Virus record (IMG/VR): IMGVR_UViG_3300020037_003876
Length of the DNA: 36,621 nt
Direction: 5' to 3' (one strand)
DNA from: a virus
In this document: in pieces, positions 2,048 through 27,625 of the stretch
Numbering within the stretch: position 1 is the first letter of the stretch
How the letters are laid out: every line of letters begins with the position of its first letter
Notes under the pieces: model-generated
The model's database searches: none
What the model was told of the DNA's origin: nothing
What the model saw: only the letters and a program-made list of their open reading frames with translations
Program-made: the position numbers and the translations under genes

Positions 2048-2947
2048 ATGATAGACATCAACAAATTCAGCGGGCAAGGGGATGATAGTCCACCTGCATC
2101 AAATAATCTTAATGAACTTTGCATCTACCATGCTAACTGCTTAGATGGCTTCGCCTCAGCTTGGGTAGTTAAACAAGCATTACCTGATTGTGTATTCCAT
2201 CCTGGTATCTACAATGACCCTCCCCCAGATGTTACTGAGTTGGATGTAGTTTTAGTAGACTTCAGTTACAAAAGGGAAGTAATATTAGAAATGGCGAAGG
2301 TAGCAAATAGTATTACTATCATTGATCACCATAAGACTGCTATTGAAAATTTGGTAGATTTACCTGAGAATGTTAGGCTAATTGTTAATCTTAATAAAAG
2401 TGGGTGTATACTTACTTGGGAATATTTTTTCGGTACTACCACAGAAGAACCGCCACCACTACTACGGCATATCCAAGATCGTGATCTATGGCAGTTTAAG
2501 TTACCCAACACTAATCTAATAACTCTTGCGCTTTCTTCCTATGACTGTGACTTTGATGTATGGTCAGATATTATAAATACTGTAGGTATTGGTACATTAG
2601 TTAATGAAGGCAAGACTCTCAATAGAAAGTACCAAAAAGACTTATACTCTCTTATTGAACTTACCAAACGTAACCTTTGGATTGGTGGGCAGACAGTACC
2701 AGCAGCCAATGTATCCCATCAGTATGCTAGTGACGTTGGAAATATTATGGTTCAAGAGACACTGGGAGCAGCCTTTGCTGCTACTTATTATGATACAGCG
2801 GAGTGGAGAATATTTAGCTTGCGCTCTGTTGATGGTGGTATGGATGTTTCTGAGGTAGCTAAACTGTATGGGGGTGGTGGACATAAGCATGCTGCCGGAT
2901 TTAGGGTAACAAGGTACCAGGCTCAAGACTTTGAGATCGCATTGTAG
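2048..2947 (+). CDS. DHH/DHHA1-family phosphoesterase (NrnA/RecJ-like superfamily).
   Basis: Motifs IIDHHKT (DHH) and GGGGHKHAAGF (DHHA1 GGGH), plus N-terminal YHANCLDGFASA. 299 aa. Confidence 0.8.
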   Translation: MIDINKFSGQGDDSPPASNNLNELCIYHANCLDGFASAWVVKQALPDCVFHPGIYNDPPPDVTELDVVLVDFSYKREVILEMAKVANSITIIDHHKTAIENLVDLPENVRLIVNLNKSGCILTWEYFFGTTTEEPPPLLRHIQDRDLWQFKLPNTNLITLALSSYDCDFDVWSDIINTVGIGTLVNEGKTLNRKYQKDLYSLIELTKRNLWIGGQTVPAANVSHQYASDVGNIMVQETLGAAFAATYYDTAEWRIFSLRSVDGGMDVSEVAKLYGGGGHKHAAGFRVTRYQAQDFEIAL

Positions 2948-2972
2948 TTTACTAGCTACCTAGCTGAATAAC

Positions 2973-3018
2973 AAAAAGGGATAATAAGATTAAGTTCTTA
3001 TTATCCCTTTTCTTTTTC
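2973..3018. terminator. Bidirectional intrinsic terminator between the convergent plus-strand early and minus-strand late operons.
   Basis: A 14-bp stem (2975-2988 aaagggataataag with 2997-3010 cttattatcccttt) and an 8-nt loop. It has an A-run upstream and a T-run downstream. Confidence 0.85.
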
Positions 3019-3024
3019 CGGCTC

Positions 3025-3357
3025 TTAGCTTACAGGCTTACTGGTATCACTTGCTTGTGGTACTGGCACAATAGGTACAAGACCTGTCTCAGTCTTATTT
3101 CCAAAGTTAGCCACCTTCACCTTATTAAAGATATTAACAAGCCCCCCAATAGAACTCTGAATTACGGGCCAGATTTTATCGAACTGTCCAGCAGCTTCAG
3201 TTGAGTTATCATAAGTAGCCTGTAACATTGTCTTTAGCAGGGCTAACTTATCTGCACCAGCCCCTTGATTAGGTACTGCCGCCTCAATTGTCTTGATAGC
3301 ATCAATGATACTTGGTAACAAGCTAATAATTAATTTCAATATTTGAACAAACCCCAT
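3025..3357 (-). CDS. Small protein with a hydrophobic N-terminus; a holin-like role is only tentative.
   Basis: Last gene of the late operon. N-terminus MGFVQILKLIISLLPSIIDAI followed by a GAGADK motif. The call rests on position and weak resemblance. Confidence 0.3.
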   Translation of the reverse strand: MGFVQILKLIISLLPSIIDAIKTIEAAVPNQGAGADKLALLKTMLQATYDNSTEAAGQFDKIWPVIQSSIGGLVNIFNKVKVANFGNKTETGLVPIVPVPQASDTSKPVS

Positions 3358-4756: not shown

Positions 4757-5572
4757 CTACACCTCTAAGTAAACTCTATAACCAAAAAATAAATCAGTGT
4801 TTGTGTCGCCGCCGGTCGCTGGCATAATAGAAAAACTCAGTTTATAAGTAGATCCGTAGCTGTGAGTTATCGACGCATCCATCAAACCACCAAGACTCCC
4901 GCTTGTTGCTACACCGGCTGTTGAATTAGCTATCGTGTCTGTCCAAGTCATGCTACTAGCAGATAAGAATTGCACAAATGTACTAACCATCTGCTGTTTA
5001 TTAGTGCCTGTCGACACAGTTACGTCTGATACTTTGGGATTGCTTAAAGGTGTTCCACTAGTGCCTAACAATGTGTAAAAGTTTGATGCAGCGGCACTCG
5101 TGGCACCTTTACCCCAATAGCTCTCTATCGTGAGTCTAAAGCCTAGGTGAGTAAAATTAGCAGGGAACAATATATTCCCATTTGGTAATGTAATATTAGC
5201 TTCTACCGCTCCAGTACCGGTGGGAATGGACACTAACGGTGAGGCTTTGGTACTAAATTCCTGAGCGTAAAGCTGACGATTAGGTGTGTGCCACACGACA
5301 CCATCTGACTGTAAAATAATACCGGCAGCTGGCATAGCTGTTAGTGCTGCCCCACCAACAAAAGTAAACTCGGATCGTGGGTGCCTAATTAAGCTTCCAA
5401 CAGCGACACTAGAAGCATCAGGTCTCCCGGCAATCGTATACTCTGGTATTCCAGTTATAGGTAAACCCGTTGCAGGATCAATTACAGATCCATTTACATA
5501 ATAAAGAAGACTTAACGACCTGCGTATAAATCCTTTGTACAGAATTACAAGAGCTTGAAAATCCTCATTCAT
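4757..5572 (-). CDS. Hypothetical tail-fibre-cluster protein (271 aa).
   Basis: Position, plus Ser/Thr/Gly-rich beta-type composition. Confidence 0.4.
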   Translation of the reverse strand: MNEDFQALVILYKGFIRRSLSLLYYVNGSVIDPATGLPITGIPEYTIAGRPDASSVAVGSLIRHPRSEFTFVGGAALTAMPAAGIILQSDGVVWHTPNRQLYAQEFSTKASPLVSIPTGTGAVEANITLPNGNILFPANFTHLGFRLTIESYWGKGATSAAASNFYTLLGTSGTPLSNPKVSDVTVSTGTNKQQMVSTFVQFLSASSMTWTDTIANSTAGVATSGSLGGLMDASITHSYGSTYKLSFSIMPATGGDTNTDLFFGYRVYLEV

Positions 5573-8994: not shown

Positions 8995-10232
8995 TAGTAC
9001 AATGGTCCTTTAATCCCAAGTTGATTGGCGATATCTTCCGGCGTGGTGCCGCGATTCTGCGCCGTCTCATAAAGTTCTGCGACAGAAACATCACGCTTCA
9101 GAGTTGGTGCATTAACTTTGGTACGCCACGCCTGGTTTAATCCTTTCCCAGTGCTTTTATTGCTTATAAAATCAGATTTGAACTGATTGTAGCCAGCTTC
9201 TATTCTTGATATTTTAGCCGCGCCTCTTAAGTATGCCGCCGTTTGTTCCGCGCTTGCATTAGCATTAATCTGGGTTGACGTAACTAGGCGTATATCAGCA
9301 TCAGATGCCGCTCCAGGTGGCAATAATTTAATCGCTTCTGACATTCTTGTTTCGTTAACTTGCCGCCTAAACTCAGATATAGCATCCTGAGTTCCAAGCA
9401 AAGATTTTAATGATTCTTCTGCTGTTGATTTTAATCCACCCTGTATTTTCAGCTTCTCGAAGTCGTTGGCTAAAAGATCAAACTTATTTGCTTTACGTTG
9501 TGATGTTACCGTAGCGTCCTGAGACGTGAGTAAGACTTTTTCAAGACCGGCAGATAATTTATTGGTTTGACGAGCCTCTGATTGTTCCTGTAATTGCAAT
9601 TGCCGTTCGCGTAAACTCTGATCTCGCATACGCAAATTAATGTCAGTGCGATCCTTCTGAAATCCTTGCACCGGAGCAGCAGTTGCCTGACCGGTTGTTG
9701 GATCGATTGTTACAACCTGACCATCAACAATTTGAGTTTTTGGCATAACCGTTTTAGGTGGCGGTGCCATAAAGCCTTCAATGGGAGCAGCTGTAGCTTT
9801 ACCTTGTGGACTAATGGTAACCGCTTGACCGTTCACAATCTGTGTTTTTGGCTGCGCGGATTGAGGTAATTTAAGCAATCCATTAGCCTGAGCAAAATTA
9901 ACAACAGTCGATACATCAGCATGAGCGCCTTCTATATCACCATCCTCGATCTTTTGTAAGACTCCCATGGTGTCACTTGGATCTCCGCCAAGCTTGCGTA
10001 TAGCCGACAATCGATTGATTAAGGTAGCGCGAGCCGCTGGTATATTCCCTGTTTGTAAATTCTGCTGCACAGTATAAGCGTCTTGTAGCAAAGCCATTTT
10101 TCTGCCTTCGCTCAACTGCTGTTGCTGTTGCTGCTGCACGTGCATAAAATACGGCCCCTGACCAGCAACACCGGCACCAAACCCCTGCAATGCGTTAGCT
10201 ATTTTTGAGTAAGTACTTGGCTGATTATCCAT
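8994..10232 (-). CDS. Internal virion / ejection protein with a polyQ tract and an internal about 30-aa duplication.
   Basis: The track start 10247 is TTG. ATG 10232 (MDNQPS) follows gaggg. Contains QQQQQQQ and a duplicated PKTQIV(N/D)GQ.VTI..motif. Confidence 0.5.
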   Translation of the reverse strand: MDNQPSTYSKIANALQGFGAGVAGQGPYFMHVQQQQQQQLSEGRKMALLQDAYTVQQNLQTGNIPAARATLINRLSAIRKLGGDPSDTMGVLQKIEDGDIEGAHADVSTVVNFAQANGLLKLPQSAQPKTQIVNGQAVTISPQGKATAAPIEGFMAPPPKTVMPKTQIVDGQVVTIDPTTGQATAAPVQGFQKDRTDINLRMRDQSLRERQLQLQEQSEARQTNKLSAGLEKVLLTSQDATVTSQRKANKFDLLANDFEKLKIQGGLKSTAEESLKSLLGTQDAISEFRRQVNETRMSEAIKLLPPGAASDADIRLVTSTQINANASAEQTAAYLRGAAKISRIEAGYNQFKSDFISNKSTGKGLNQAWRTKVNAPTLKRDVSVAELYETAQNRGTTPEDIANQLGIKGPLY

Positions 10233-10239
10233 AATCCCT

Positions 10240-11310
10240 CTATGCAAATGCCATCATTGCTGTTCCGATGCCGGATGCAGCCTGCCCTATGCTTCCAAGA
10301 ACGCCTTGAGTTTGCTGTATTCCTGGGACACCTTGCAAACCGGCAACCTGTCCGCTTTGAGTCATGCCGAGGCTTGAAAGTAATTGTGCAAGCTGCATTT
10401 TTGCATCAGCATTACCATTTCCAGCTCCGGCAAGCAATTGCGCCAAGTTGCTTCCGCCCTGATTAATAATGTCAGAAACCCCAGCACCTTGCTGGCTATT
10501 TAGTGCAGCAAGCTGTTCACCTGCTCGCGTTCTTCCTGATGCCAATGAATTCCCTGTGTTAAATGCGTAATTCGCGGCATTGTTACCATAGTTATAATTA
10601 TTGTTTGCTATTTGCCCGGTCAAGTTTGCAGATATATTTAATCCGTTAAGCCCAGTATTTGATATCTGACCTAACCTATCAAATTGATTTCCGAAATCTT
10701 GCTGTGCAAATCCTATGCCCTGTCGCTGCAATTCTTGCAACACTCTACTTCCGCCAAGTCCACCAACCGCAGACGCATTTCTCAATACCGCCTGTTCTCC
10801 TCGGTCTTGCAGAAATTGTTGTCCTGGGCTTGAGTTATAGTTCGCAAAGGCTTGGGCCTGAGCTTCAGGCCCAAGCGCGCCAGATAACGCAGCCTGCAAA
10901 TCAATAGCAGAACTTCCCGCTTTGACAAACGGATCAAGCGCGGATATTCCGCTCTGCAAAACTGAATTTGCTTGTGAGTTACCTTGCTGCAAAGCATCCA
11001 GAGACCCAGATAACCCGCCCTGCAAAGCAGATTCGGACCCAATCAACCCAGTTTGTGGCGCTCCTGGCACAGATGTTTGAGTCATTGTTCCTGGGTCTGT
11101 ATATCCTTGGCTAGCCAGATATGGCATAGCCGCTTGATTGGTGAATCTTGGGTCATTTGGAGCTGCGGCCTGTATCTGGCTCAAACTCACGCCATTTGCA
11201 TTTGCAGCAGATAGTATCTGGTCTGGCGTAAGATTTGGATTGGAAAGAAACTGACTGATATCATTGCTTGATATTGCTGAATTTCCAGTGCCAAATATTG
11301 TTTGGGCCAT
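10240..11310 (-). CDS. Internal virion / ejection protein (Gly/Gln/Ala/Asn-rich).
   Basis: Composition, and position equivalent to P22 gp20. Confidence 0.5.
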   Translation of the reverse strand: MAQTIFGTGNSAISSNDISQFLSNPNLTPDQILSAANANGVSLSQIQAAAPNDPRFTNQAAMPYLASQGYTDPGTMTQTSVPGAPQTGLIGSESALQGGLSGSLDALQQGNSQANSVLQSGISALDPFVKAGSSAIDLQAALSGALGPEAQAQAFANYNSSPGQQFLQDRGEQAVLRNASAVGGLGGSRVLQELQRQGIGFAQQDFGNQFDRLGQISNTGLNGLNISANLTGQIANNNYNYGNNAANYAFNTGNSLASGRTRAGEQLAALNSQQGAGVSDIINQGGSNLAQLLAGAGNGNADAKMQLAQLLSSLGMTQSGQVAGLQGVPGIQQTQGVLGSIGQAASGIGTAMMAFA

Positions 11311-25294: not shown

Positions 25295-25561
25295 TTACCC
25301 GTATAGACTTTGCATTGTTTCACCAAGCAAATTCAATTCGTTCTGCTTCATTACTTTCAGCATAAATTGCTGCCCGTGAATTCCGTTTCGTTCGCCCTGG
25401 TGGCAATCCTTGCAAAGCGGTATCGTGCAAAAATCGTGCGCTCTACGTCCTTTGATTCGACCTTCTAAAATGTGATGTGCGTCGCTTGGAGCACTGGCGC
25501 CACACAAACAGCACGGCATTGATTTGATGCGCTCAATGTGTTTATAAATCGACTTACTCAC
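25295..25561 (-). CDS. Ref-like / HNH-type zinc-binding nuclease (recombination enhancement family).
   Basis: CCLCG...AHHI...IPLCKDCHQG..GIHG. The GTG start overlaps the upstream stop (GTGA). Confidence 0.55.
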   Translation of the reverse strand: MSKSIYKHIERIKSMPCCLCGASAPSDAHHILEGRIKGRRAHDFCTIPLCKDCHQGERNGIHGQQFMLKVMKQNELNLLGETMQSLYG

Positions 25562-26133
25562 TCATCCACCATCAGATCAGCCATGCTTTCAATCTGCCCG
25601 GGAGAAAGATCTGGCCAATATTTTTCCGCGATGAATATGCATATCTTTTCAGCCGCGCAATGAAATTCAGCTTCATCCATGCTATCGAAACTCAGGCTTC
25701 TTGGGATTCGTGAAATCATGAATCCGTTGTCATTTATTCGGAATCCGATCAAAGATAAAATTGGCTCTACAACTGACCGCACATATTTCCAGACTTGAAA
25801 CTCGAATCCGTGAATTTTTATTGCTATTTCGTCACAGCATATATTTCCTTCAAGCTGTAGCCGTTTTATTACCGCGTGCCCGTCCATGCCGATAAACTCT
25901 TCGATGTTCTGTGCGCACAGCAAACCTAGCTTATGCACAAGCCGGTTAAATTTTGGATTCCGCAGCTTAACGATATCAACCTTTACCACATCCCCAATGT
26001 GTAGCTTTTTATTACGCAGCATGGTCTCAGCGTACTTGTCGGCAGGGGCAAATCCGCCTTTGATTACACGCAGATGCACCTTCTCGCGCTTTTGTCTTGG
26101 TCTGGCTGCTGGTAGTGTGTTTGCGCTATTCAT
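25558..26133 (-). CDS. nin-region protein, DUF1367-like (tentative).
   Basis: 191 aa. VDIVKLRNPKFNRLVHKLGLL resembles the RNxxFHRKFFALL motif I recall for DUF1367. Confidence 0.4.
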   Translation of the reverse strand: MNSANTLPAARPRQKREKVHLRVIKGGFAPADKYAETMLRNKKLHIGDVVKVDIVKLRNPKFNRLVHKLGLLCAQNIEEFIGMDGHAVIKRLQLEGNICCDEIAIKIHGFEFQVWKYVRSVVEPILSLIGFRINDNGFMISRIPRSLSFDSMDEAEFHCAAEKICIFIAEKYWPDLSPGQIESMADLMVDE

Positions 26134-26605: not shown

Positions 26606-26812
26606 TCATTTCTTATTACCATTCAATTCATCAAGCTTGTCGGCGATTTGTCGTAGATCTGCAGAGCTAGAAACCTCAAAATTGTTGAACCATGTAAACA
26701 GCCATCTTTTGTCCTGCTGCTTACGTAATTCAGCCAATCTGTTAACACCGCGAGTAACAGTCACCCTTTCTTTTGCAACGCTTAAAGTAAACTCCAACAT
26801 ATATATCTCCAT
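26606..26812 (-). CDS. Small hypothetical protein.
   Basis: 68-aa ORF. A second in-frame ATG at 26800 has the better SD (ggag). Confidence 0.5.
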   Translation of the reverse strand: MEIYMLEFTLSVAKERVTVTRGVNRLAELRKQQDKRWLFTWFNNFEVSSSADLRQIADKLDELNGNKK

Positions 26813-26991
26813 AAAAATAAAACCAAGTCAGAAGCTGGCCAGATTTTCACTGGCAACGCTGTGTATTCTAAGCAGTACTTTCATGCTATCCCAAGTCTCC
26901 CATTTCACAGCAAACCTGCCATTAAGGTTGAGTGTACTATCCGCTCCGCAGCTTCATTCTTGGCCACCGTTTAACCACGGTAGCACGGGTT

Positions 26992-27108
26992 TTGTTAGTG
27001 ACCGGAGCTGAGTCTCTTTACCCGGCATGGCTTCAAAGTGTTCCAGTCCATCTCTGCCTACTACACTGGTTTCGCTGCACGTCAGCTTAATCGTGCATTC
27101 ACTAACAA
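26992..27108. repeat. Module I: a 10-bp closing helix plus a conserved internal hairpin.
   Basis: ttgttagtga (26992-27001) pairs with tcactaacaa (27099-27108). Hairpin gcacg (27077-27081) / cgtgc (27092-27096) has loop tcagcttaat. Confidence 0.7.
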
Positions 27109-27199
27109 GTTGTTGATACTTCCTTGGCTACCTCAAGCATGGCGGTTAGAGGATTTTTAACTACGCCAATTTACCCAGAAATATCAACACTTCTTAGTG
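27100..27199. repeat. Hairpin IIa.
   Basis: cactaacaagttgttgata (27100-27118) pairs with tatcaacacttcttagtg (27182-27199), with one C.C mismatch and one bulged T. Confidence 0.7.
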
Positions 27200-27208
27200 C
27201 TGCATTCA

Positions 27209-27351
27209 CTAACAATTAAGGCGGCTGGGCTTGATACCAGCTCCGGGCTGCTAATGTACTGAGCTACATTCCGGTTCCTCGTGACTTTATCTCAGTTTGC
27301 ACCAAGCGTGTCCTTACGGTTTTATCCTCCACGCCGCGCCTTAATTGTTAG
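27209..27351. repeat. Element B1, closed by a perfect 15-bp helix.
   Basis: ctaacaattaaggcg (27209-27223) pairs with cgccttaattgttag (27337-27351). Inner hairpins: 27224-27241, 27253-27270 and 27306-27334. Confidence 0.75.
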
Positions 27352-27373
27352 CCATCCGTATCGTGGATGAGAC

Positions 27374-27490
27374 GTGTTAGTGACCGGAGCTGGTACTATC
27401 CCGGCATTCCCGTTTCTTGATTGATCAGACCAAGCGCAAGGCAAGTACCCACCTCAAGGCACGTCAGCTTAATCGTGCATTCACTAACAA
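27374..27490. repeat. Module I', the second copy of module I.
   Basis: tgttagtga (27375-27383) pairs with tcactaaca (27481-27489). 27459-27492 is 34/34 identical to 27077-27110, and 27374-27392 is 18/19 identical to 26992-27010. Confidence 0.75.
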
Positions 27491-27618
27491 GTCATGTGCT
27501 CTAAAGGCGAAAAGCGGTTCCGGTATCTTGGACAGTCCAAAGGGCGTCAGGCACTTTGACCCTACGCCCTGCCGGTGCGACCTTCTCGGCTTGTAATAAG
27601 AGCACATGCTTCTTACTG
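27482..27618. repeat. Hairpin IIb.
   Basis: cactaacaagtcatgtgctct (27482-27502) pairs with agagcacatgcttcttactg (27599-27618). Confidence 0.7.
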
Positions 27619-27625
27619 CTGCATT

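What the first reader, a model, noticed from the sequence alone, without database searches (positions are those of the whole stretch)
26992..27492. Module I and I': near-identical ends around unrelated cores (scaffold plus variable-segment pattern)
27077-27110 and 27459-27492 are 34/34 identical. 26992-27010 and 27374-27392 are 18/19 identical. A short cccggcat box lies at a similar offset in both (27021 and 27400). The roughly 65 nt between these conserved pieces share no obvious similarity.

Conserved scaffold ends with freely diverging cores are typical of programmable or decoy RNAs (guides, antitoxin or sponge repeats) and of cassette-type DNA arrays. They are less typical of a simple recent duplication, which would preserve the core equally. 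Any function is inference only.
Basis: inference. Interest (0 to 1): 0.6.

Follow-up and report, generated by a model that had tools for sequence, protein, structure and literature searches.

The report
Phage RNA scaffold with swappable cores
The two "modules" are two copies of a previously undescribed ~120-nt folded RNA element in a Nitrosomonas phage: the folded frame is kept almost letter for letter while the middle is swapped wholesale, and its relatives sit among phage tRNA genes.

Summary
27077-27110 equals 27459-27492 (34/34), 26993-27010 equals 27375-27392, the cccggcat box is in both copies, and the ~50-65 nt between them are no more alike than shuffled sequence.

I and I' are two copies of a structured element ("type A"). 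It is best read as RNA on the minus strand, the direction of the replication-to-nin operon. Its frame has three helices:
- a closing helix, UUGUUAGUGA/UCACUAACAA;
- a 5' hairpin, GCACG-AUUAAGCUGA-CGUGC;
- a 3' hairpin, CCGGG...CUCCGG.

A loop-loop contact GCUGA x UCAGC is possible. Across 14 copies from about 20 metagenomic contigs and two Nitrosomonadaceae prophages the frame persists, with compensatory changes, around at least 8 unrelated cores.

The modules belong to a 1.1-kb array with two other element types. Relatives lie in phage tRNA arrays, co-oriented with the tRNAs, and some cores are tRNA-like. A Nitrosomonas type I-C CRISPR spacer matches the invariant 34-mer exactly.

No Rfam family matches. 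The cores show no guide-like complementarity to the phage or to two host-family genomes. No integrase or Ro60 partner was found. "Scaffold plus variable segment" is therefore supported, while "guide, antitoxin or DNA cassette" is not. Function is unknown. The scan's own first-reader notes already flag this same island; no look-alike was noted on other DNA.

The parts
26992..27110 (-). Type A module I (whole element, RNA read on the minus strand)
   Evidence: It is closed by TTGTTAGTGA (26992-27001) and TCACTAACAA (27099-27108).
27374..27492 (-). Type A module I' (whole element)
   Evidence: The minus-strand fold is -44.1 kcal/mol (z -3.0) against -34.9 (z -1.9) on the plus strand. The same core occurs in L082 and L125/L136.
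27077..27110 (-). Invariant 34-mer of module I. It holds the P1 5' strand (27100-27108), an AA linker, and the P2' hairpin GCACG (27077-27081) / CGTGC (27092-27096) with its loop AUUAAGCUGA.
   Evidence: Identical in all canonical copies. P2' covaries in the variant lineage. It is the exact match of a Nitrosomonas CRISPR spacer, at 27075-27108.
27459..27492 (-). Invariant 34-mer of module I' (P1 5' strand plus P2' hairpin)
   Evidence: 34/34 with 27077-27110. The CRISPR spacer matches it with 2 mismatches.
27002..27028 (-). P3 hairpin of module I plus the AUGCCGGG box. CCGGAG (27002-27007) pairs with CCCGG (27021-27025); cccggcat lies at 27021-27028.
   Evidence: The pairs are G.U on the minus strand where the plus strand would have A.C. 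The loop tail UCAGC is complementary to the P2' loop GCUGA.
27384..27407 (-). P3 hairpin of module I' plus the AUGCCGGG box (cccggcat at 27400-27407)
27029..27076 (-). Variable core of module I (seen only in this window so far)
   Evidence: no relative carries it; unrelated to core I' and no complementarity to the phage above chance.
27408..27458 (-). Variable core of module I'
   Evidence: the same core is in L082 (identical) and in L125/L136 (a few substitutions)..
27100..27199 (-). Neighbouring hairpin E1. Its base strand (27100-27109) is the same nucleotides as the P1 5' strand of module I.
   Evidence: -35.2 on minus against -27.8 on plus; base-stem probability is about 1.0 in the full-length fold, so it competes with P1.
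27482..27618 (-). Neighbouring hairpin E2. Its base strand (27482-27491) is the same nucleotides as the P1 5' strand of module I'.
   Evidence: A homologue in the G045 prophage is 89% identical.
27626..27708 (-). Hairpin D (same conserved base helix, different upper stem)
   Evidence: Found in 7 loci.
27207..27353 (-). Type C element, copy 1 (15-bp closing stem, two conserved hairpins, variable core)
   Evidence: I5; z about -4.2.
27714..27899 (-). Type C element, copy 2
   Evidence: (I4).
27928..27995 (-). tRNA-like element ending in ACCA at the upstream edge of the array
   Evidence: Read: a 7-bp acceptor-like stem and a CUCG-UUCGAUU-CGAG hairpin. Not called by ARAGORN or Rfam.

Best explanation
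Modules I and I' are two copies of one structured RNA element ('type A', about 115-175 nt). It is made from the minus strand as part of the early-right transcript: promoter near 30600, then cro-like gene, O-like initiator, phrog_6028 protein, 130-aa ORF, the array, NinB, RusA.

The conserved ends are the frame of the fold:
- P1, a 9-10-bp closing helix, 5'-UUGUUAGUGA / UCACUAACAA-3'.
- A 2-nt linker, then P2', a 5' hairpin (GCACG-AUUAAGCUGA-CGUGC).
- P3, a 3' hairpin (CCGGG-loop-CUCCGG) that abuts the 3' strand of P1.
- The P2' loop (GCUGA) can pair with the tail of the P3 loop (UCAGC). This would tie the two hairpins together much as the D and T loops are tied in a tRNA.

The topology is tRNA-like: closing helix, 2-nt linker, 5' arm, central region, and a 3' arm stacked on the closing helix. 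The central region, where the anticodon and variable arms would be, is the interchangeable part. Phages of this group carry at least 8 unrelated cores in the same frame, exchanged by recombination within the conserved boxes.

The element is one of three kinds (A, C and E/D hairpins) strung into a 1.1-kb ORF-free array. In other phages the same kinds lie inside tRNA gene arrays on the tRNA strand.

Inferred, not shown: the array is cut by the host's tRNA/RNA-processing nucleases into stable small RNAs. The frame provides folding, processing and stability. The core is a payload that binds or distracts a host or phage factor, so a decoy or sponge is more likely than a base-pairing guide.

The 5' strand of P1 is also the 3' base strand of the upstream hairpin. 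The two helices exclude each other, yet both are kept by compensatory change, so ordered refolding or processing is probably part of the mechanism.
For: Shown:
1. Frame helices. Of 278 cells in P1, P2' and P3 across 14 copies, 259 pair on the minus strand. Three P1 positions and four of five P2' pairs carry double (compensatory) changes: GCACG/CGUGC, GCGUA/UACGC, GCGCA/UGCGC, GCGUA/UGCGC, UGCA/UGCA (94% paired, 0 of 500 shuffles reach it).
2. Strand.
- Single changes give G.U on the minus strand where the plus strand would have A.C: L011 in P2', G045 and L162 in P3, G039 in the type C hairpin. The count is 15 G.U on minus against 7 on plus.
- 12 of 14 neighbouring hairpins fold better on minus, by about 7 kcal/mol on average.
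- In all 7 related loci that hold tRNA genes, the elements are co-oriented with the tRNAs.
- T-loop hairpins (stem plus UUCGAUU) occur in the arrays only on this strand: window 27941-27955, L063, G045, L224.
3. Scaffold and variable core. The 34-mer is identical in all canonical copies while the cores are unrelated. L125 combines the P3 loop of module I with the core of module I', which shows recombination inside the frame.
4. Context.
- The 1.39-kb gap has no ORF with family support.
- It sits in the same position, after the replication genes and before ninB/rusA, in L188, L140 and the G045 prophage.
- The host is Nitrosomonadaceae: an exact 34-nt spacer in a type I-C array of a Nitrosomonas MAG and prophages in G045 and G039.
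5. Three-way covariation. In L188b, G039 and L224, changes in the shared strand are matched both in the type A 3' strand and in the base of the upstream hairpin.
6. The loop-loop pairing GCUGA x UCAGC is possible (5-6 bp) in 14 of 14 copies, and the one change, in L162, gives G.U.
Against: - That an RNA is made at all is inferred.
- In a thermodynamic fold of the whole island, P1 of both modules is out-competed by the neighbouring hairpin bases: P1 probability is at most 0.03, against 0.8-1.0. The autonomous 'closed module' may exist only transiently or after cleavage.
- The folds of I and I' alone are only modestly better than shuffles (z -1.7 to -3.0).
- Most double changes separate two lineages (UUAGUG and UUGGUU), so the number of independent compensatory events is small.
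- P3 and the loop-loop contact are nearly invariant, so conservation supports them but covariation does not.
- The central domains share no common shape, with 1-3 hairpins each.
- Nothing identifies a partner or target.
Confidence: 0.58

Rival explanations
1. The elements act only in cis within the operon transcript. On this reading they are processing or 'punctuation' sites, mRNA stabilisers, barriers against Rho-dependent polarity across a long untranslated stretch, or a refolding switch that tunes expression of the downstream nin and late genes. The variable cores would then be mere spacers.
For: - The array lies inside an operon, with no promoter-like site of its own found upstream.
- In relatives, ORFs in the operon direction are inserted between elements (L011, L125, L133).
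- Single hairpins with the conserved base lie between ORFs elsewhere in the nin region of L188 and L011.
- The mutually exclusive helices are kept by three-way covariation.
- In L188 and L082 the type A element ends about 25 nt before the next start codon.
Against: - Each core allele is itself conserved between contigs: I' in L082 and L125, and one core in 7 contigs. Spacers would drift.
- The same element kinds live in tRNA arrays, where there is no mRNA to regulate.
- Some cores carry D-arm and T-arm motifs.
Confidence: 0.2
2. The repeats are DNA sites, and the 'modules' are recombination cassettes. CTTCTTAGTG-N7-CACTAACAAG looks like a tyrosine-recombinase core site (two 10-bp inverted arms around a 7-bp spacer). 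The stem-closed modules look like integron attC sites or MITEs with TG...CA terminal inverted repeats.
For: - Inverted 10-mers sit at every module boundary.
- Modules are shuffled, duplicated and interspersed with ORFs among relatives.
- As in attC sites, the ends are conserved and the middle is free.
Against: - No integrase or transposase is in the window or next to the arrays.
- Breakpoints between relatives are not at one fixed position: after CTAAC in L011 and after CTAACAATTAAGG in L133.
- GTTAGTG does not fit the attC core GTTRRRY (direct reading).
- Copies are confined to this one locus and are not dispersed in the phage or in host genomes.
- Internal hairpins far from the ends covary, and the strand asymmetry (G.U against A.C, T-loops, tRNA co-orientation) is not expected of double-stranded sites.
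- Variant and canonical arm sequences coexist in one phage (L188), each with matching partners. This fits pairing, not one binding protein.
Confidence: 0.1
3. The modules are programmable guide-type RNAs, or mimics of defence-system RNAs, in which the core base-pairs with a nucleic-acid target.
For: The scaffold-plus-variable-segment architecture. A 12-nt perfect complementarity links 27235-27246 and 27384-27395 (I16).
Against: - The longest core matches to the rest of the phage are 11 nt, no better than shuffles.
- In two host-family genomes there are only chance-level 14-24-nt hits. These run through the conserved CCCGGCATGGC box and mostly lie inside coding genes.
- The 12-nt complementarity is not conserved in any relative.
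- No effector protein is associated.
- The cores are structured, not single-stranded.
Confidence: 0.05
4. The modules are decayed remnants of a tRNA gene array, or a recent local duplication kept alike by gene conversion, with no present function.
For: tRNA-like fragments are scattered in the arrays. ARAGORN and Rfam find no tRNA. The window array is a tandem duplication of a C-E-A unit.
Against: - The 34-mer is identical across samples and across a prophage of another species while everything around it differs.
- There are compensatory changes in three lineages.
- Decay would not preserve helices or discrete, conserved core alleles.
Confidence: 0.05

Closest known systems
Non-tRNA stable RNAs encoded within phage tRNA gene clusters (for example T4 species 1 and species 2 RNAs; from my own knowledge)
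   Same: Small structured RNAs of unknown function that sit among phage tRNA genes on the tRNA strand and are presumably cut from the same precursor. Relatives of type A and type C lie in tRNA arrays and are co-oriented with the tRNAs.
   Different: No sequence relation was tested or is known. Here the elements form an array of their own, without canonical tRNAs, inside the replication-to-nin operon of a lambdoid phage, and they share a common junction helix.
Bacterial Y RNAs / YrlA (PMC4201824)
   Same: 80-130-nt RNAs with a long conserved closing stem and a module that mimics tRNA. They are sometimes encoded in tandem and processed from one precursor, and they occur in phages. Some elements of this array place D-arm and T-arm hairpins inside the conserved closing helix (G045, L063, L224).
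   Different: No Ro60/Rsr (TROVE) gene is in the window or in two host-family genomes. There is no Rfam Y_RNA or YrlA match. Modules I and I' themselves have no T-loop or D-loop, and the closing-helix sequence is different.
tRNA
   Same: The order of helices matches: closing helix, 2-nt linker, 5' arm, central region, then a 3' arm abutting the closing helix. A contact between the loops of the 5' and 3' arms is possible. The genomic company is tRNA arrays.
   Different: P1 is 9-10 bp rather than 7. There is no T-loop, no D-loop GG, no anticodon loop and no CCA. ARAGORN and the Rfam tRNA model do not call it.
Integron attC sites
   Same: Conserved inverted ends around a middle that is free in sequence and length, lying between cassettes.
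   Different: No integron integrase, ends that do not fit RYYYAAC/GTTRRRY, imprecise boundaries, and covarying internal hairpins with a strand bias typical of RNA.
Phage T7-type RNase III processing hairpins (from my own knowledge)
   Same: For the neighbouring E/D hairpins: repeated intercistronic hairpins with a conserved lower stem that holds a mismatch, below variable upper stems.
   Different: The upper parts here are large branched domains of 60-160 nt. Cleavage is untested. Type A is a multi-helix junction, not a hairpin.
Unnamed candidate structured RNAs catalogued from IMG/VR (PMC10690425)
   Same: That study lists 8,495 covarying intergenic motifs in phage contigs, including tRNA-like ones. 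Type A or type C may be among them.
   Different: I could not check, because the supplements are not held. No name, structure or function for these elements appears in the text I read.

Membership tests
Any Rfam 15 family | Match to a curated covariance model | tested here: not met
   No hit at gathering score in the window. Over 26700-28300 at E<=10 there were only chance miRNA/snoRNA hits. There was also no relevant hit in the G045 prophage array, nor on the type C elements of nine related loci.
tRNA | Cloverleaf with 7-bp acceptor stem, D-loop, anticodon loop and T-loop (UUCRANY) | tested here: not met
   ARAGORN finds none in the window, L011, L063, L082 or L206. The Rfam tRNA model finds none. 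Read directly, modules I and I' lack a T-loop and an anticodon loop.
Y RNA / YrlA | Encoded next to, and bound by, a Ro60/Rsr (TROVE-domain) protein | tested here: not met
   PF05731 is absent from G001 and G045, while the control genomes gave hits. No TROVE hit appears among the window ORFs scanned.
Y RNA / YrlA | tRNA-like domain with D-arm and T-arm inside a conserved closing stem | tested here: not met
   Not present in modules I and I'. It is present in some sister elements: G045 10096-10262, the L063 E-core and the L224 core.
Integron attC / gene cassette | Integron integrase IntI nearby | tested here: not met
   No integrase family appears among the ORFs scanned in the window or is conserved next to related arrays.
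Integron attC / gene cassette | R''/R' core sites RYYYAAC...GTTRRRY and exact cassette boundaries | tested here: not met
   The ends read CACTAAC and GTTAGTG, which do not fit. Breakpoints among relatives vary by up to 8 nt.
CRISPR array or solitary-repeat RNA (anti-CRISPR RNA) | Regular repeat-spacer periodicity; repeat matching a host CRISPR repeat | tested here: not met
   Spacings are 107, 275 and 144 nt. The host array's repeat, GTTTCAATCC...GCGCTAC, is unrelated, and the 34-mer matches a spacer, not the repeat.
Type III toxin-antitoxin RNA (ToxI-like) | Exact head-to-tail ~36-nt repeats next to an endoribonuclease toxin gene | tested here: not met
   The repeats are not head to tail. The flanking ORFs have no such family.
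MITE / transposon | Terminal inverted repeats with dispersed copies and target-site duplications | tested here: not met
   Inverted ends are present, but all copies lie in one locus. No copies occur in the host genome G001 outside the CRISPR spacer, and only prophage copies occur in 190 family genomes.
New 'type A' element family (as defined here) | P1 closing helix, P2' hairpin with loop ...GCUGA, AUGCCGG box and P3 hairpin with loop tail UCAGC | tested here: met
   Both I and I' carry every feature. 14 copies are tabulated, and the alignments are A1 and A3.

The most novel reading that the evidence does not exclude
Type A, together with the much more widespread type C, may be a new class of phage 'cassette RNAs'. 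A tRNA-shaped frame, processed by the tRNA machinery, would display an interchangeable structured payload. Phages would swap payloads by recombination in the frame to match the RNA-binding or RNA-cleaving defences of their particular host strain. This would be an RNA-level counterpart of swappable anti-defence genes. The mutually exclusive helices shared by neighbouring elements would impose an ordered, processing-coupled folding pathway on the array.
Probability: 0.2. Interest if true: 0.85.

Novelty: new variant of a known kind. Interest (0 to 1): 0.64.

Why it matters
Phage tRNA arrays are usually annotated tRNA by tRNA, and whatever lies between is ignored. This work shows at least two unannotated structured-RNA families, type A and the widespread type C. 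They live on the tRNA strand of such arrays, and in Nitrosomonas phages they can replace the tRNAs altogether.

Their design, an almost invariant frame around wholesale-swapped cores, is what one expects of molecules that present something to a partner. It is also the sort of variation seen in arms races. If the cores are decoys for host nucleases or RNA-binding proteins, this would open a new layer of phage-host conflict in ammonia oxidisers, which matter in wastewater treatment and soils.

The exact CRISPR spacer links an uncultured phage group to its host. It also shows that the host targets the one piece the phage apparently cannot change.

Tried and rejected
1. Known RNA family. Rfam at gathering and at E<=10 on the window, on the G045 array and on nine related loci gave nothing relevant. 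ARAGORN gave nothing.
2. Cultured relatives. There is no DNA match to INPHARED phages or E. coli genomes. The neighbouring protein has only <=51% relatives, in Ralstonia and Pseudomonas phages.
3. Replication origin or iterons. I rejected this.
4. Operator sites. TGTTAG also occurs in the early promoter region, but only as a 6-mer, so I treated it as coincidence.
5. Guide or target search. The cores were compared with the window and with genomes G001 and G045. The recurrent ACCCGGCATGGC hits lie in flhA-like and lipoamide-dehydrogenase-like coding sequence and are at chance level.
6. Ro60 partner: absent.
7. A conserved protein neighbour of the arrays: none beyond the replication and nin genes.
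8. Wider distribution of the frame.
- Pattern searches in 190 family genomes and 401 order genomes gave only two prophages (G045, G039). The remaining hits were no more numerous than the reversed-pattern controls, and those I read were chance matches in unrelated sequence.
- The 15-mer and 18-mer scans of IMG/VR, genome and metagenome collections returned mostly chance hits, which had to be filtered by BLAST.
9. A covariance model of type A was not built. MAFFT cannot align the unrelated cores, and it placed the AUGCCGG box in different columns. Helices were tabulated by hand instead.
10. Hammerhead-like reading of CUGACG...GAAAC in module I. I rejected it, since there is no stem II and the motif is in one copy only.
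12. The IMG/VR candidate-RNA catalogue. Its supplements are not held.
Full report
OBSERVATION

The repeats are exactly as described. 27077-27110 and 27459-27492 are 34/34 identical. 26993-27010 and 27375-27392 are identical, with 26992 and 27374 differing (families D1 and D4). cccggcat lies at 27021-27028 and 27400-27407. About 2e-12 exact 34-nt repeats are expected by chance in a window of this size (my arithmetic). The segments between the conserved pieces are unrelated: a global alignment scores 24, against 18.8 +/- 5.5 for shuffles, and 97 of 500 shuffles score as high.

The same 10-mer, or its one-mismatch variant CTTCTTAGTG, also recurs in alternating orientation a dozen times between 26992 and 27899.

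SETTING

The window is a lambdoid phage with P22-type portal, coat and stabilisation proteins. The modules lie in a 1.39-kb stretch (26813-28205) without supported ORFs. Genes on either side all read on the minus strand:
- upstream, an O-like replication initiator (29220-30134), a phrog_6028 protein and a 130-aa ORF;
- downstream, small ORFs, NinB (25558-26133), an HNH-like protein and RusA.

The same position is occupied by related arrays in other contigs and in a prophage. No promoter-like site precedes the array on the minus strand, so it is most simply part of the early-right transcript.

RELATIVES AND HOST

Nothing similar is in cultured phages or E. coli. Scans of IMG/VR, metagenomes and genomes with pieces of the conserved ends, filtered by BLAST, gave about 15 related contigs. 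One hit, L086, is a 45-repeat CRISPR array in a Nitrosomonas sp. MAG. Spacer 25 of its 44 spacers equals window 27075-27108 exactly and matches 27457-27490 with two mismatches. The adjacent cas genes are type I-C. That type targets DNA, so the spacer says nothing about transcripts.

A search of 190 genomes of the same family found prophages with related arrays in G045 and, more diverged, in G039. Only chance-level hits were found in 401 genomes sampled from the order. The host is therefore very probably Nitrosomonas or a close relative.

THE FRAME IS A FOLD, READ ON THE MINUS STRAND

On the minus strand each module reads as follows:
- 5'-UUGUUAGUGA (P1 5' strand);
- AA linker;
- GCACG-AUUAAGCUGA-CGUGC (hairpin P2');
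- the core;
- AUG-CCGGG-loop-CUCCGG (hairpin P3);
- UCACUAACAA-3' (P1 3' strand).

The 19-mer is P3's 3' strand plus the P1 3' strand. cccggcat is the 5' strand of P3.

I tabulated 14 copies: nine of the canonical lineage, and five of a variant lineage found in L188, G039, L224, L225 and L251. Across them 259 of 278 helix cells pair.
- P1 shows A-U to G-C, G-C to U-A and U-A to A-U exchanges.
- Four of the five P2' pairs change on both sides (GCACG/CGUGC, GCGUA/UACGC, GCGCA/UGCGC, UGCA/UGCA).
- The loop motif GCUGA stays fixed.

The tool count on the canonical set plus one variant gives 94% paired, and none of 500 shuffles reaches the observed values. Most double changes separate the two lineages, so the number of independent events is small.

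Four lines of evidence point to the minus strand:
- Single substitutions give G.U on minus where plus would have A.C (L011, G045a, L162, L224, and the G039 type C hairpin).
- 12 of 14 neighbouring hairpins are clearly more stable on minus.
- Stem-plus-UUCGAUU hairpins occur four times in these arrays, always on this strand.
- In every related locus that carries tRNA genes (7 of 7), the elements are co-oriented with the tRNAs.

The P2' loop tail GCUGA is complementary to UCAGC at the end of the P3 loop in all 14 copies, over 5-6 bp, and the single change gives G.U. This contact is supported by conservation only.

THE CORE IS SWAPPED, NOT MUTATED

The same frame holds at least eight unrelated cores:
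- I, seen in this window only;
- I', also in L082, and in L125/L136 with a few substitutions;
- a 96-nt core shared by seven contigs;
- L143;
- L162;
- a core family shared by L063, G045, L188b and L225;
- G039;
- L224;
- L251.

Copies of one allele are nearly identical, so this is allelic replacement, not hypermutation. L125 joins the P3 loop of I to the core of I', which places a crossover in the cccggcat box. With the frame helices enforced, the cores fold into one to three hairpins with no common shape. The L224 core contains a T-arm hairpin. In G045 a sister element in the same frame has a D-like arm and a perfect T-arm abutting the closing helix.

THE ARRAY AND THE COMPETING HELIX

I and I' are the last members of a twice-repeated unit. 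Read on minus, the order is type C, then hairpin E (plus hairpin D in the upstream unit), then type A.

The E/D hairpins have an invariant base, CACUAAGAAG/CUUGUUAGUG, with a purine-purine mismatch. Their upper stems differ in each of 14 examples yet always pair.

The 3' base strand of the hairpin is the very same nucleotides as the 5' strand of type A's P1, so the two helices exclude each other. In a partition-function fold of the whole island the hairpin bases win, with probability 0.8-1.0 against at most 0.03 for P1. Yet in the variant lineages the shared strand's changes are matched in both partners (L188b, G039, L224). Both pairings therefore appear to be under selection. This points to ordered refolding, or to P1 forming after the upstream hairpin is cleaved off. 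This point is inference.

WHAT IT IS NOT

- No Rfam family matches, and no tRNA is called.
- It is not a Y RNA system. TROVE/Ro60 is absent from the window and from two host-family genomes.
- It is not a CRISPR-like or ToxI-like array, because the spacing is irregular.
- It is not an integron or transposon. No recombinase is present, boundaries are imprecise, and copies are confined to one locus.
- There is no sign of a guide. Core complementarity to the phage and to genomes G001 and G045 is at chance level.
- The 12-nt complementarity between 27235-27246 and 27384-27395 is not conserved in relatives.

WIDER CONTEXT FOUND ON THE WAY

The type C element is far more widespread than type A. Its hairpin motif hits 39 IMG/VR contigs where about five are expected by chance, giving 28 distinct instances. 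Their closing stems are unrelated in sequence but complementary, and the second hairpin occurs in at least five compensatory variants. Type C sits inside phage tRNA arrays (L226 with 13 tRNAs; L249 with 8 tRNAs and a tmRNA) and also has no Rfam match. The window's island is thus a tRNA-array-like locus built entirely from non-tRNA elements, plus one tRNA-like piece ending in ACCA (27928-27995).

MECHANISM, WITH ODDS

Most likely (about 0.58), modules I and I' are copies of a structured RNA whose conserved ends are a tRNA-shaped frame and whose centre is an exchangeable payload. They would be co-transcribed with the early operon and released by host RNA-processing enzymes.
- Shown: the fold and the strand are supported by comparative evidence.
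- Inferred: transcription, processing, and a decoy or sponge role of the core.

The main rival (about 0.2) is a purely cis-acting role in processing, stability or switching of the operon transcript. DNA-level cassettes (0.1), guides (0.05) and decayed junk (0.05) fit the data poorly.

NOVELTY

These are undescribed families, as far as Rfam 15 and the papers I could read show. They belong to a known general kind: structured small RNAs that accompany phage tRNA genes, and tRNA-mimicking RNAs. They may be hidden, unnamed, in the IMG/VR candidate catalogue of PMC10690425, which I could not check. The scan's own first-reader notes already flag this same island (e1-3634407, -408, -409, -412). No look-alike was noted on other DNA.

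Noticed in passing
window 27207-27353 and 27714-27899; loci L226-L262: The type C element reads: closing stem, GCGUG-GAAGGA-CACGC hairpin, variable core, GCUGG-UAUCAAGC-CCAGC hairpin. It is a widespread phage RNA family, with 28 distinct instances in IMG/VR. It sits inside tRNA arrays on the tRNA strand, shows strong covariation and has no Rfam match. It deserves its own study.
   Followed up: partly
L086 2687-5878 (Nitrosomonas sp. MAG CP45, contig NZ_QPHG01000014.1); window 27075-27108: A 45-repeat type I-C CRISPR array whose spacer 25 matches the invariant 34-mer of the phage element exactly. This links the phage group to Nitrosomonas. The flanking bases do not give a clean TTC PAM (TTC lies one base off).
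   Followed up: partly
window 27928-27995 (minus): A tRNA-like element with a 7-bp acceptor-like stem, a 5-bp stem with 7-nt loop UGAAAAU, a CUCG-UUCGAUU-CGAG hairpin and a 3' ACCA, but no D-arm. ARAGORN and Rfam do not call it.
   Followed up: partly
L206 (G045 prophage) 10096-10262; L063 4660-4745; L224 about 4790-4830; L252, L238, L237 cores: In relatives, the same frames (type A, type C and the E hairpin) sometimes enclose cores with genuine D-arm and T-arm motifs. The frames therefore act as holders for tRNA-like and non-tRNA-like inserts alike.
   Followed up: partly
window 27100-27109 and 27482-27491; L224 4880-5080; L188 10880-11090: One strand (CUUGUUAGUG on minus) serves two mutually exclusive helices: the base of the upstream hairpin and P1 of type A. 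Changes in it are compensated in both partners in three lineages.
   Followed up: partly
window 27899-27925; L206 9716-9745; L213 1655-1690: A small hairpin after type C has the conserved loop CGGGUAAGA (minus strand) and a stem that covaries: UGAC/GUCA, CUAGC/GCUAG, CCUGCC/GGCAGG.
   Followed up: no
L011 1823-2257, L125 about 880-1170, L133 about 2600-3200: In relatives, small ORFs in the operon direction are inserted between array elements, with junctions at or near the CTAAC motif. The array is therefore a hotspot for gene insertion.
   Followed up: no
L249 3033-3397: A phage contig carrying a full-length tmRNA gene (Rfam 91 bits) within an 8-tRNA array, next to a type C element.
   Followed up: no
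window 2048-2947 (+): A 299-aa ORF with weak DHH/DHHA1 phosphoesterase matches (nanoRNase/RecJ-like family), at or just below the Pfam cut-offs.
   Followed up: no
window 27235-27246 and 27384-27395: A perfect 12-nt complementarity between type C copy 1 and module I' (TACCAGCTCCGG / CCGGAGCTGGTA). It dominates the full-length MFE fold but is absent from all relatives, so it is probably a recombination scar.
   Followed up: yes
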